Source of the DNA: Escherichia coli | Lineage (GTDB): Bacteria; Pseudomonadota; Gammaproteobacteria; Enterobacterales; Enterobacteriaceae | Reading direction: 5' to 3' (one strand) | DNA: 64,000 bases | NCBI RefSeq assembly: GCF_030384885.1 | Contig: NZ_CP128613.1 | Part shown: piece after piece, positions 46,901-49,900 of the stretch | How the letters are laid out: every line of letters starts with the position of its first letter | Numbering within the stretch: the stretch's first letter is position 1 | Program-made: the position numbers

Positions 46901-49900
46901 TCGTCTTTGCTCTCTTCATCAAGACTCACCCGCAGCCCGTTCTCAATGATGTTGATCGCTTTTGACAAAGAGACGCCTTTGCCTTGCTGATTGTTGTCCT
47001 GCATAAACAGGCGCGCTCTAACCAGTGCGCTCAGCACTCCATCAAATAGCATGGTGACCAGCTGCTGCTGGCTGGCGCTCATTACGGCGCTTTCGACGCC
47101 AATTTGTGCATAGGCCTGGGTGCCTTTTGCCGCGTACATGACCTGTCTCCCGATGAATATTGATTACTTGGAATTACTGTTGTTTTCGAACTGCTGCGTT
47201 AAGTAGCTGCTGGTGCTATTTAACGAGGTCATTAAAACGTCCAGTTGGGTAAATTGTTCTTTGTAGCGAGCGACCTGCGCATCAATGCGATCGCTGGCGG
47301 CGTTGTAGTCTTTAGTTAACTTATTCAGGGTCTTACTAACGCCATCGGTAGCGGCTTTAATAATGCCCGTTGTCGAAAGCCAACTGGTCAGGTTGCTGCC
47401 GATGGTGGTCGTGATGCCGGTTTTTTTACCATCGCCAACAATCAATGCACCTACGCCGCTGGCATCTTTTTTCAGTGCAGCGGTGAGTTTGTCGGCATCC
47501 AGTTCCAGTTTGCCATCGCTGGGATCGGTCGTGATACCAATCTGCGCCAACGTTTTATAGTTGGAAGAACTAACGGTATTACTCAGCATCGATTTCAACT
47601 GCGTCTGAATCGTCCGCAACGTGGAGTCGCCGAGCAGTGCGCCATTGCTAGAACTCTGGCTATCAGCCCCCGCATCTACGGCGGTGTATTTGGTCAGGCT
47701 GCTGAAGGTATCTATTAGCGAGTTATAGGCATTCACCCAGTCTTTAATTGCCGTTTGCGCTTTGGAGGTGTCCTGAGTGATGGTTAGCGTCTGGTTGCCC
47801 GTGGTGACATCGTTCAGGTTCAGGGTGATGTTTTCCAGCGCGTCGCTGATGGTGTTGCTGCTGTTCTCAATGGCGACGTTGTTGACCGTCAGCTGCGCAT
47901 TCTGGGCGGCGACCGAGACCTCCATGCCGTTGCTGCTGGCACTGGCGTCATAGCCCATAAAACTTTGTAGCGCATCATCACCGCTAACCGAGAGCGTCAT
48001 CGCATTGTCAAGGCCGGTGTCATTTGATGTGACTGACAGACGATATTCACCGTTACCCACGTTAATGATGCTTGCGCTTACGCCTGCTTTTGCGTTGTTG
48101 ATAGCATCACGGATCCCGCTTAACGATGAGTTAGCCGCGCTGATATCAATGGTAATCGGATCTTTGTCGCCGCCTTGTTGAATGGTGATTTTACTGTCGC
48201 TGGTGGCGATCGCCGTTTTCGTATCATCTCTGGTGGTGCGCGTGGTCAGGGTTTGCGCCTGCGCCAGATGGGTGACGCTGATGGTGTATTTCCCGGCGAT
48301 GGCGTTACCCGCGGTGGTGGCACTGAACGCGGTGGTGCTGCTGGTGGTGCTGGTGGCGGAAAAAAGATCGGCTTTAGACAATGCAGTATTGGCGGTCTGG
48401 AAAGTCGTCAGCGCGCTTTTCAGCGTACCGTAGGCGCTAAGTTTAGCGGTAAACGACGATTGCTGATTTGAAATAGGGGTTAGCGTCGCTTTTTGCGCGG
48501 CGGTGAGGCTATCGAGGATTGAACTTAAATCCAGACCTGACCCGACTCCCAGCGATGAAATACTTGCCATGCGATTTCCTTTTATCTTTCGACACGTAAA
48601 ACGAATACCGGGGTTATCGGCCTGAATTGCGCAAAGTTTACGTTTAATTGTTTTTTTTAATAGCGGGAATAAGGGGCAGAGAAAAGAGTATTTCGGCGAC
48701 TAACAAAAAATGGCTGTTTGTGAAAAAAATTCTAAAGGTTGTTTTACGACAGACGATAACAGGGTTGACGGCGATTGAGCCGACGGGTGGAAACCCAATA
48801 CGTAATCAACGACTTGCAATATAGGATAACGAATCATGGCACAAGTCATTAATACCAACAGCCTCTCGCTGATCACTCAAAATAATATCAACAAGAACCA
48901 GTCTGCGCTGTCGAGTTCTATCGAGCGTCTGTCTTCTGGCTTGCGTATTAACAGCGCGAAGGATGACGCAGCGGGTCAGGCGATTGCTAACCGTTTTACT
49001 TCTAATATTAAAGGCCTGACTCAGGCGGCCCGTAACGCCAACGACGGTATCTCCGTTGCGCAGACCACTGAAGGCGCGCTGTCCGAAATCAACAACAACT
49101 TACAGCGTATTCGTGAACTGACGGTTCAGGCCACTACAGGGACTAACTCCGATTCTGACCTGGACTCCATCCAGGACGAAATCAAATCCCGTCTCGACGA
49201 AATTGACCGCGTATCCGGCCAGACCCAGTTCAACGGCGTGAACGTACTGGCAAAAGACGGTTCGATGAAAATTCAGGTTGGTGCGAATGACGGCCAGACT
49301 ATCACTATTGATCTGAAGAAAATTGACTCTGATACGCTGGGGCTGAATGGGTTTAACGTTAACGGCAAAGGTACTATTGCGAACAAAGCTGCTACAGTCA
49401 GCGATCTGACCGCTGCTGGTGCAACGGGAACAGGTCCTTATGCTGTGACCACAAACAATACAGCTCTCAGCGCTAGCGATGCACTGTCTCGCCTGAAAAC
49501 CGGAGATACAGTTACTACTACTGGCTCGAGTGCTGCGACCTATACTTATGATGCGGCTAAAGGGAACTTCACCACTCAAGCAACAGTTGCAGATGGTGAT
49601 GTTGTTAACTTTGCAAATACTCTGAAACCAGCGGCTGGCACTACTGCATCAGGTGTTTATACTCGTAGTACTGGTGATGTGAAGTTTGATGTAGATGCTA
49701 ATGGCGATGTGACCATCGGTGGTAAAGCCGCGTACCTGGACGCCACTGGTAACCTATCTACAAACAACGCCGGCATTGCATCTTCAGCGAAATTGTCCGA
49801 TCTGTTTGCTAGCGGTAGTACTTTAGCGACAACTGGTTCTATCCAGCTGTCTGGCACAACTTATAACTTTGGTGCTGCGGCAACTTCTGGCGTAACCTAC

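What the first reader, a model, noticed from the sequence alone, without database searches (positions are those of the whole stretch)
48600..48770. Back-to-back sigma-28 promoters in the fliD-fliC divergent region
Both class 3 promoters are recognisable (TAAACTTT-N11-GCCGATAA for fliD on the minus strand, TAAAGGTT-N11-GACGATAA for fliC on the plus strand), about 95 bp apart. This is the expected architecture and supports the operon assignments.
Basis: partly seen in the sequence, partly recalled or inferred. Interest (0 to 1): 0.15.

Follow-up and report, generated by a model that had tools for sequence, protein, structure and literature searches.

The report
Known fliC and fliD sigma-28 promoters
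The two motifs are the well-studied FliA (sigma-28) promoters that drive the flagellin gene fliC and the filament-cap operon fliDST in opposite directions in E. coli; they are real, strongly conserved and already known.

Summary
The window is an E. coli fliDST / fliC / fliAZ region. TAAACTTT-N11-GCCGATAA lies on the minus strand at 48640..48614, upstream of fliD. TAAAGGTT-N11-GACGATAA lies on the plus strand at 48733..48759, upstream of fliC. The inner edges of the two -35 elements are 92 bp apart.

These are the only two sites in 64 kb within 2 mismatches of the sigma-28 consensus (0.06 expected by chance). The same two sequences are the published FliA ChIP-seq motifs in K-12; the fliC one is identical and the fliD one differs by 1 nt.

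A published capped-5'-end map puts the fliC start at W48767, 8 nt after the -10 element. No sigma-28 start for fliD could be retrieved. The only fliD start found (W48649) lies upstream of the sigma-28 -35 element.

Conservation is strong. A second E. coli haplotype of this spacer, only about 70% identical, keeps all four elements intact while both N11 spacers diverge. All 19 divergent fliD-flagellin loci from other genera carry both motifs.

In K-12 an FlhDC/sigma-70 class 2 promoter between the two sigma-28 promoters supplies most fliD transcription under laboratory conditions.

Verdict: ordinary, already known, low interest.

The parts
47164..48570 (-). fliD coding sequence (filament cap), first gene of fliDST
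   Evidence: 468-aa ORF. Annotated fliD in a strain with an identical spacer and in K-12.
48603..48607 (-). Predicted fliD class 3 transcription start (best guess A at 48606, giving a 36-nt leader)
   Evidence: Inference. Published rule: TSS lies 18-22 bp downstream of the FliA motif centre. By analogy with fliC, the start is 8 nt after the -10 element. No mapped sigma-28 start for fliD was retrieved.
48614..48621 (-). fliD sigma-28 -10 element GCCGATAA (K-12 has ACCGATAA)
   Evidence: The CCGATAA core is invariant in the 13-sequence alignment of the E. coli allele B spacer and 11 other genera. Across all 19 divergent loci the -10 element carries at most one substitution.
48633..48640 (-). fliD sigma-28 -35 element TAAACTTT
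   Evidence: Conserved in E. coli allele B while the 11-nt spacer diverges. TAAACTTT recurs in 12 of the 19 divergent loci.
48649..48649 (-). Published fliD 5' end (NC_000913.2 coordinate 2001817), preceded by TATTAA; a non-sigma-28 start
   Evidence: Kim 2012 Table S1. Coordinates converted via the K-12 alignment. Its relation to the FlhDC-dependent promoter is uncertain.
48659..48703 (.). Candidate FlhD4C2 box: two conserved blocks (AATAGCGGGAATAAGG and GAGTATTTCGGCGACTAA) 11 bp apart
   Evidence: Both blocks are conserved across genera and partly conserved in allele B. FlhDC occupancy at the fliD promoter is shown by ChIP-qPCR in K-12. The match to a consensus recalled from memory is only 18 of 26 and is not significant alone. 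The assignment is inferred.
48722..48732 (+). Conserved A-tract GAAAAAAATTC abutting the fliC -35 element; possible UP-like element
   Evidence: Identical in E. coli allele B and mostly conserved across genera. The function is inferred.
48733..48740 (+). fliC sigma-28 -35 element TAAAGGTT
   Evidence: Identical to the K-12 FliA ChIP-seq motif. Conserved.
48752..48759 (+). fliC sigma-28 -10 element GACGATAA
   Evidence: Identical to the K-12 FliA ChIP-seq motif. The CGATA core is invariant.
48767..48767 (+). fliC transcription start (G), 8 nt after the -10 element
   Evidence: The SMRT-Cappable-seq operon table gives b1923 a TSS at 2003675, reverse strand. This maps to W48767 through a 100% identical alignment of this segment.
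48767..48835 (+). fliC 5' untranslated leader (69 nt) with two small hairpins near the 5' end
   Evidence: TSS. Fold (z = -0.8, not significant). The hairpin sequences are visibly conserved across genera.
48836..50542 (+). fliC coding sequence (568-aa flagellin)
   Evidence: The N-terminus matches FliC/FljB family flagellins.

Best explanation
These are the two divergent FliA (sigma-28) class 3 promoters of the E. coli flagellar regulon. FliA is released when the anti-sigma factor FlgM is exported through the completed hook-basal body. FliA-RNA polymerase then recognises TAAAGGTT-N11-GACGATAA and starts fliC mRNA at W48767, giving a 69-nt leader. It also recognises TAAACTTT-N11-GCCGATAA on the opposite strand and starts fliDST mRNA near W48606, giving a leader of about 36 nt. 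fliC depends almost entirely on this promoter. fliDST additionally has an FlhDC-activated sigma-70 (class 2) promoter in the roughly 90 bp between the two sigma-28 promoters, so fliD is made both before and after hook completion. Shown here or in cited data: the sequence elements, their rarity, their conservation, FliA occupancy, the fliC start site, and FliA/FlhDC dependence in K-12. Inferred: the exact fliD sigma-28 start, the position of the FlhDC box and the class 2 start, and that this strain behaves like K-12.
For: (1) The two sites are the only ones in 64 kb within 2 mismatches of the consensus (0.06 expected). Both sit in the fliD-fliC spacer in the correct orientations. (2) The spacer differs from K-12 at only 2 of 265 positions. 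The K-12 FliA ChIP-seq table lists TAAAGGTTGTTTTACGACAGACGATAAC for fliC (score 110; RNA 2319 to 11 in the fliA deletion) and TAAACTTTGCGCAATTCAGACCGATAAC for fliDST (score 43; RNA 633 to 356). (3) The fliC capped 5' end at 2003675 corresponds to W48767, 8 nt after the -10 element and 22 bp from the motif centre. This falls within the published 18-22 bp rule. (4) In a microarray study, fliC fell 78.8-fold and fliD 9.9-fold in the fliA deletion, and both were induced by fliA overexpression. fliA overexpression in an flhD deletion restores fliD expression. (5) A natural footprint exists. An E. coli haplotype of the spacer that is only about 70% identical (about 1315 genomes, including ST131) keeps all four elements and the start regions identical while both N11 spacers diverge. 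(6) In all 19 loci from other genera with divergent fliD-flagellin, both strands carry an N11 motif with 12-15 of 16 matches at conserved distances from the start codons. Shuffled spacers reach 13 or more in 3 of 950 trials and never reach 14.
Against: No sigma-28-dependent start site for fliD was retrieved. The only fliD 5' end found (W48649) is upstream of the sigma-28 -35 element. In K-12 RNA-seq, fliD RNA fell only from 633 to 356 in the fliA deletion. A fliD promoter-lacZ fusion showed no FliA dependence, which the authors attribute to the strong FlhDC promoter immediately upstream. A genomic-SELEX screen with reconstituted RpoF holoenzyme lists no peak in the fliC-fliD spacer, although it also misses other canonical class 3 promoters. 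All functional data come from K-12, not from this strain.
Confidence: 0.93

Rival explanations
1. The fliD-side motif binds FliA but contributes little, so fliDST is effectively an FlhDC/sigma-70 class 2 operon and the sigma-28 element is a minor or back-up promoter.
For: fliD RNA fell only from 633 to 356 in the fliA deletion, but from 633 to 3 in the flhD and flhC deletions. The lacZ fusion showed no FliA dependence. The authors state that most transcription of dual targets comes from the FlhDC promoters under their conditions.
Against: The element is conserved in the 70%-identity E. coli haplotype and in all 19 other divergent loci while its spacer drifts, which argues for selection. fliA overexpression in an flhD deletion restores fliD to wild-type level or higher. 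A microarray study found a 9.9-fold drop in the fliA deletion. [quoted passage not shown]
Confidence: 0.2
2. The two promoters form one coupled bidirectional unit. The conserved sequence between them (candidate FlhDC box, A-tract) would act on both genes, for example FlhDC or RNA polymerase at fliD influencing fliC initiation.
For: The 92-bp gap between the -35 elements recurs (92-107 bp in 11 of 19 loci). The conserved blocks and the A-tract abut the fliC -35 element.
Against: The gap ranges from 29 to 183 bp across genera, and E. coli allele B has a 19-bp deletion in it, so there is no fixed phasing. fliC expression is explained by FliA alone. No data retrieved show FlhDC acting directly on fliC.
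Confidence: 0.08
3. The motifs are chance matches to a short consensus.
For: The consensus is AT-rich and the spacer is AT-rich. One additional 3-mismatch match occurs elsewhere in the window.
Against: 0.06 sites are expected and 2 are observed at up to 2 mismatches. Orientation and position are correct, ChIP-seq shows occupancy, a mapped start exists for fliC, and the elements are conserved across genera.
Confidence: 0.01

Closest known systems
E. coli K-12 fliC promoter (FliA/sigma-28, class 3)
   Same: The motif is identical (TAAAGGTTGTTTTACGACAGACGATAAC), with identical start region and leader. The mapped TSS transfers directly.
   Different: One substitution 13 bp upstream of the -35 element (W48720 is G, K-12 has T). 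The downstream flagellin is a different H type (568 aa here, 498 aa in K-12).
E. coli K-12 fliDST dual promoter (FlhDC/sigma-70 class 2 plus FliA class 3)
   Same: Same -35 element, spacer, start region and upstream conserved blocks. Same gene order fliD-fliS-fliT.
   Different: The -10 element is GCCGATAA here (full consensus) and ACCGATAA in K-12. The 76-bp segment containing the window form is the majority among E. coli genomes with this spacer type (2350 of 3187 identical).
Salmonella enterica fliC and fliDST promoters
   Same: Same divergent arrangement, same sigma-28 consensus TAAAGTTT-N11-GCCGATAA, and dual class 2/3 control of fliDST. This rests on established knowledge: Kutsukake and Ide 1995, Ide et al. 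1999 and Wozniak et al. 2010, cited.
   Different: The comparison therefore rests on the literature.

Membership tests
FliA (sigma-28) class 3 flagellar promoter | -35 TAAAGTTT and -10 GCCGATAA separated by 11 bp | tested here: met
   fliD matches 15 of 16 and fliC 14 of 16, both with N11.
FliA (sigma-28) class 3 flagellar promoter | FliA occupancy in vivo | tested here: met
   Published K-12 ChIP-seq peaks carry these motifs. The fliC motif is identical and the fliD motif differs by 1 nt. Not measured in this strain.
FliA (sigma-28) class 3 flagellar promoter | Transcription start about 7-8 nt downstream of the -10 element | tested here: met
   For fliC: TSS 2003675 corresponds to W48767, 8 nt after the -10 element.
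FliA (sigma-28) class 3 flagellar promoter | Transcription start downstream of the fliD element | tested here: inconclusive
   The only fliD 5' end retrieved (W48649) is upstream of the element. The dRNA-seq data set that would settle this (Thomason 2015) is not held.
FliA (sigma-28) class 3 flagellar promoter | Expression depends on fliA | tested here: met
   fliC fell from 2319 to 11, and by 78.8-fold in a second study. fliD fell from 633 to 356 and by 9.9-fold, and is restored by fliA overexpression in an flhD deletion. All of this is literature on K-12.
FliA (sigma-28) class 3 flagellar promoter | Conservation of both elements at orthologous loci with a free spacer sequence | tested here: met
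   E. coli allele B. 19 of 19 divergent loci in other genera.
FlhD4C2-activated class 2 promoter (fliDST) | FlhDC binding upstream of fliD and FlhDC-dependent expression | tested here: met
   ChIP-qPCR occupancy, and RNA falling from 633 to 3 in the flhD and flhC deletions in K-12.
FlhD4C2-activated class 2 promoter (fliDST) | Recognisable FlhDC box and a mapped class 2 start | tested here: inconclusive
   The conserved blocks at 48659..48703 score 18 of 26 against a consensus recalled from memory, and 36 hits (overlapping register variants included) score 19 or more in the window. The W48649 start sits too close to that box for canonical activation.

The most novel reading that the evidence does not exclude
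The most novel reading left open concerns the single-base difference in the fliD -10 element: GCCGATAA here and in E. coli allele B, ACCGATAA in K-12. It may mean that the laboratory reference strain has an atypically weak fliD class 3 promoter. If so, the reported near-irrelevance of FliA for fliDST in K-12 would underestimate the role of this promoter in natural E. coli. Separately, the two deeply diverged spacer haplotypes act as a natural mutagenesis that delimits every functional base of this control region.
Probability: 0.2. Interest if true: 0.2.

Novelty: already known. Interest (0 to 1): 0.07.

Why it matters
It matters only as annotation support. It confirms the divergent fliDST and fliC transcription units in this window and fixes the fliC start at W48767. 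It adds nothing new about flagellar regulation. The small extras are possible leads rather than discoveries: the K-12 -10 variant, the two E. coli spacer haplotypes, and the conserved blocks between the promoters.

Tried and rejected
- **fliD sigma-28 start site.** I looked in several places. Kim 2012 gave only W48649 for fliD and a weak intragenic fliC start. The Cappable-seq supplement had no entries near the locus. The SMRT-Cappable-seq table has fliC but no fliD operon. The Cho 2014 supplement gave expression values only. Conway 2014 has no held supplements. Thomason 2015, Wozniak 2010, Stafford 2005, Kundu 1997 and Kroger 2012 are not held.
- **Sigma-70 scan of the spacer.** It found nothing, as expected for activator-dependent class 2 promoters.
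- **FlhDC box scan.** Using a consensus recalled from memory, the top hit was the fliA promoter, but the fliD region scored below 36 other hits. This is not usable as evidence.
- **RNAalifold on 19 fliC leaders.** It gave no consensus structure because the alignment was poor. The single-sequence fold is not better than shuffles.
- **The 38394 match.** Rejected as a promoter: it is intragenic and its CGA core is broken.

Full report
**What is in the sequence**

The window is an E. coli chromosome segment. The ORF map gives fliD at 47164..48570 (-), followed on the same strand by fliS, fliT and amyA. On the plus strand it gives fliC at 48836..50542 (568 aa), fliA at 50708..51427, and fliZ.

A 601-bp query across the spacer is 100% identical to many E. 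coli chromosomes in which the flanking genes are annotated fliD and FliC/FljB flagellin. The 265-bp fliD-fliC spacer (48571..48835) differs from K-12 MG1655 at only two positions.

- Minus strand: TAAACTTT (48640..48633), spacer GCGCAATTCAG, then GCCGATAA (48621..48614).
- Plus strand: TAAAGGTT (48733..48740), spacer GTTTTACGACA, then GACGATAA (48752..48759).

The inner edges of the two -35 elements are 92 bp apart.

**Is it more than chance?**

Searching TAAAGTTT-N11-GCCGATAA on both strands with up to 2 mismatches finds only these two sites in 64 kb. The expectation is 0.06, and 0 of 100 shuffles give two.

At up to 3 mismatches one more site appears at 38394. It lies inside an ORF and has the CGA core broken, so I treat it as chance.

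**Published function on the same sequence**

Fitzgerald et al. 2014 (PMC4183435) list K-12 FliA ChIP-seq sites with these motifs:
- fliC: TAAAGGTTGTTTTACGACAGACGATAAC, score 110, RNA 2319 falling to 11 in the fliA deletion.
- fliDST: TAAACTTTGCGCAATTCAGACCGATAAC, score 43, RNA 633 falling to 356.

The fliC motif is identical in the window. The fliD motif differs at one base: the window has GCCGATAA and K-12 has ACCGATAA.

Zhao et al. 2007 (PMC1935009) found fliC down 78.8-fold and fliD down 9.9-fold in a fliA deletion.

The SMRT-Cappable-seq operon table (Yan 2018, PMC6131387) gives fliC (b1923) a TSS at 2003675 on the reverse strand. With the fliC ATG at 2003606 and an identical leader, this is W48767. 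That position is 8 nt after the last A of GACGATAA and gives a 69-nt leader. It is 22 bp from the motif centre, inside the 18-22 bp range reported for canonical FliA flagellar promoters (bioRxiv 10.1101/188474).

For fliD I could not retrieve a sigma-28 start. By the same rule it should be at W48603-48607, and my best guess is W48606, giving a 36-nt leader. This is inference.

The only fliD 5' end I found is 2001817 in NC_000913.2 (Kim 2012, PMC3415461 Table S1). That corresponds to W48649, upstream of the sigma-28 -35 element and preceded by TATTAA. It therefore belongs to a different promoter. That data set also lacks the sigma-28 fliC start, which suggests low flagellar expression in the strain used.

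**fliDST is dual-controlled**

- Fitzgerald 2014 shows FlhDC occupancy at the fliD promoter by ChIP-qPCR, with RNA falling from 633 to 3 in the flhD and flhC deletions.
- The same study reports that fliA overexpression in an flhD deletion restores fliD expression.
- The authors conclude that most transcription of dual targets comes from the FlhDC/sigma-70 promoters in their conditions.
- The follow-up preprint states that the fliD sigma-28 fusion showed no FliA dependence because of the strong FlhDC-activated promoter immediately upstream.

So 'class 3 promoter' is right for the element, but the operon is class 2 plus class 3.

**Conservation within E. coli**

The window-type spacer (allele A, at least 95% identical) is in 3186 of 5426 complete genomes. 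A second type, about 70% identical, is in about 1315 genomes including ST131. About 913 genomes give no match.

Aligning the two types gives a clean footprint. Both -35 elements, both -10 elements, both start regions and the A-tract GAAAAAAATTC upstream of the fliC -35 element are identical. Both 11-nt spacers are largely substituted, and a 19-bp indel lies between the promoters.

The 76-bp fliD promoter segment is identical to the window in 2350 of 3187 allele-A genomes. K-12 derivatives are among the 837 that differ.

**Conservation across genera**

A genome scan with the first 142 residues of FliC returned 80 loci. In 19 of them FliD is encoded divergently upstream. These include Kluyvera, Pantoea, Erwinia, Citrobacter, Rahnella, Yersinia, Photorhabdus, Gilliamella, Edwardsiella, Acerihabitans, Providencia, Rosenbergiella, Pectobacterium and Alloalcanivorax.

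In all 19 loci both strands carry an N11 sigma-28 motif with 12-15 of 16 matches. The positions are conserved:

| Measure | Other genera | Window |
|---|---|---|
| -10 end to flagellin ATG | 67-96 nt | 76 nt |
| -10 end to fliD ATG | 34-43 nt in 18 of 19 loci (100 nt in Alloalcanivorax) | 43 nt |

Shuffled spacers reach 13 or more in 3 of 950 trials and never reach 14.

The gap between the -35 elements ranges from 29 to 183 bp, most often 92-107 bp. A multiple alignment shows invariant TTATCGG, AAAG.TTA, CTAAAG.T and CGATA. The flagellin-side motif also extends to beta-proteobacterial loci.

**Between the promoters**

Two further blocks are conserved: W48659..48674 and W48686..48703, 11 bp apart. 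This resembles the two-arm FlhD4C2 box as I recall it from Stafford et al. 2005, which I could not read.

Against that recalled consensus the site scores 18 of 26, and 36 hits in the window (several of them overlapping register variants of one site) score 19 or more. The assignment therefore rests on conservation plus the published ChIP result, not on the motif.

If the box is there, a canonical class 2 start would fall near W48628, with the hexamer TAAACT serving as the sigma-70 -10 and overlapping the sigma-28 -35 element. The W48649 start would then be a separate weak promoter. This is unresolved.

**Non-supporting data**

A genomic-SELEX screen with RpoF holoenzyme lists fliA, flgK and flgM but no peak in the fliC-fliD spacer (Shimada 2017, PMC5493296). 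It also misses other canonical class 3 promoters, so I give it little weight.

**Verdict**

These are the textbook fliC and fliD FliA promoters. They are already known and of low interest.

Noticed in passing
window 48621 (and 48720): The window and most E. coli genomes with this spacer type have the full-consensus fliD -10 element GCCGATAA, whereas K-12 MG1655 has ACCGATAA. A second difference from K-12 lies 13 bp upstream of the fliC -35 element. The K-12 fliD class 3 promoter may be slightly atypical.
   Followed up: partly
window 48571..48835; L003:2497-2743, L005:2497-2743: E. coli carries two deeply diverged haplotypes of the fliD-fliC spacer. They are about 70% identical and differ by a 19-bp indel. 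One is in about 3186 genomes and the other in about 1315 genomes including ST131. About 913 of 5426 complete genomes match neither at blastn sensitivity; what those carry was not examined.
   Followed up: partly
L086 (NZ_CP027340.1 4438182..4438951); window 48634..48642: Strain 2015C-3121 has an IS1A element inserted in the spacer with a 9-bp duplication of W48634-48642. This separates the intact fliD sigma-28 promoter from the upstream conserved blocks and fliC. Strain 23CRST049 (L004) has an IS66-family element replacing the fliD side up to about 85 bp upstream of the fliC -35 element.
   Followed up: partly
window 50543..50707: The fliC-fliA spacer is 165 bp here and 163 bp in ST131, against 320 bp in K-12. 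K-12 has a 156-bp insert made of REP-like palindromes in the fliC 3' UTR. The K-12 sRNA FliX is annotated as 195 nt of that 3' UTR, so in this strain only about 45 nt plus the terminator hairpin (50562..50586) remain.
   Followed up: partly
window 50656..50683: The fliA promoter region is identical to K-12, including the FliA-site sequence TGCAGAAACGGATAATCATGCCGATAAC listed for fliAZY. The best FlhDC-like box in the window lies just upstream at 50605..50647.
   Followed up: partly
window 48769..48796: The fliC leader begins with two small hairpins (CGGC-GAUUGA-GCCG and GGGU-GGAA-ACCC). Their stems recur with some compensatory-looking changes (GGGU/ACCC versus GGGC/GCCC) in other Enterobacterales. 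The single-sequence fold is not significant (z = -0.8) and RNAalifold found no consensus structure.
   Followed up: partly
L006-L009: The flagellin N-termini of Kluyvera genomosp. 1, Enterobacteriaceae RIT691, Pantoea sp. WMus005 and Erwinia psidii are 94-98% identical to this E. coli FliC. They also share the unusual GACGATAA -10 variant. This is closer than expected for those genera and suggests horizontal exchange of the flagellin locus.
   Followed up: no
window 38394..38420: A 3-mismatch match to the sigma-28 consensus (TAAAGTAT-N11-ACTGATAA) lies inside a 183-aa ORF (37972..38523) that looks like a secreted protein. The CGA core is broken, so it is probably chance.
   Followed up: partly
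window 48836..50542: The flagellin is 568 aa, compared with 498 aa in K-12 and 610 aa in O121:H19 strains that share an identical spacer. The promoter region is therefore shared across different H types. The H type of this window was not determined.
   Followed up: no
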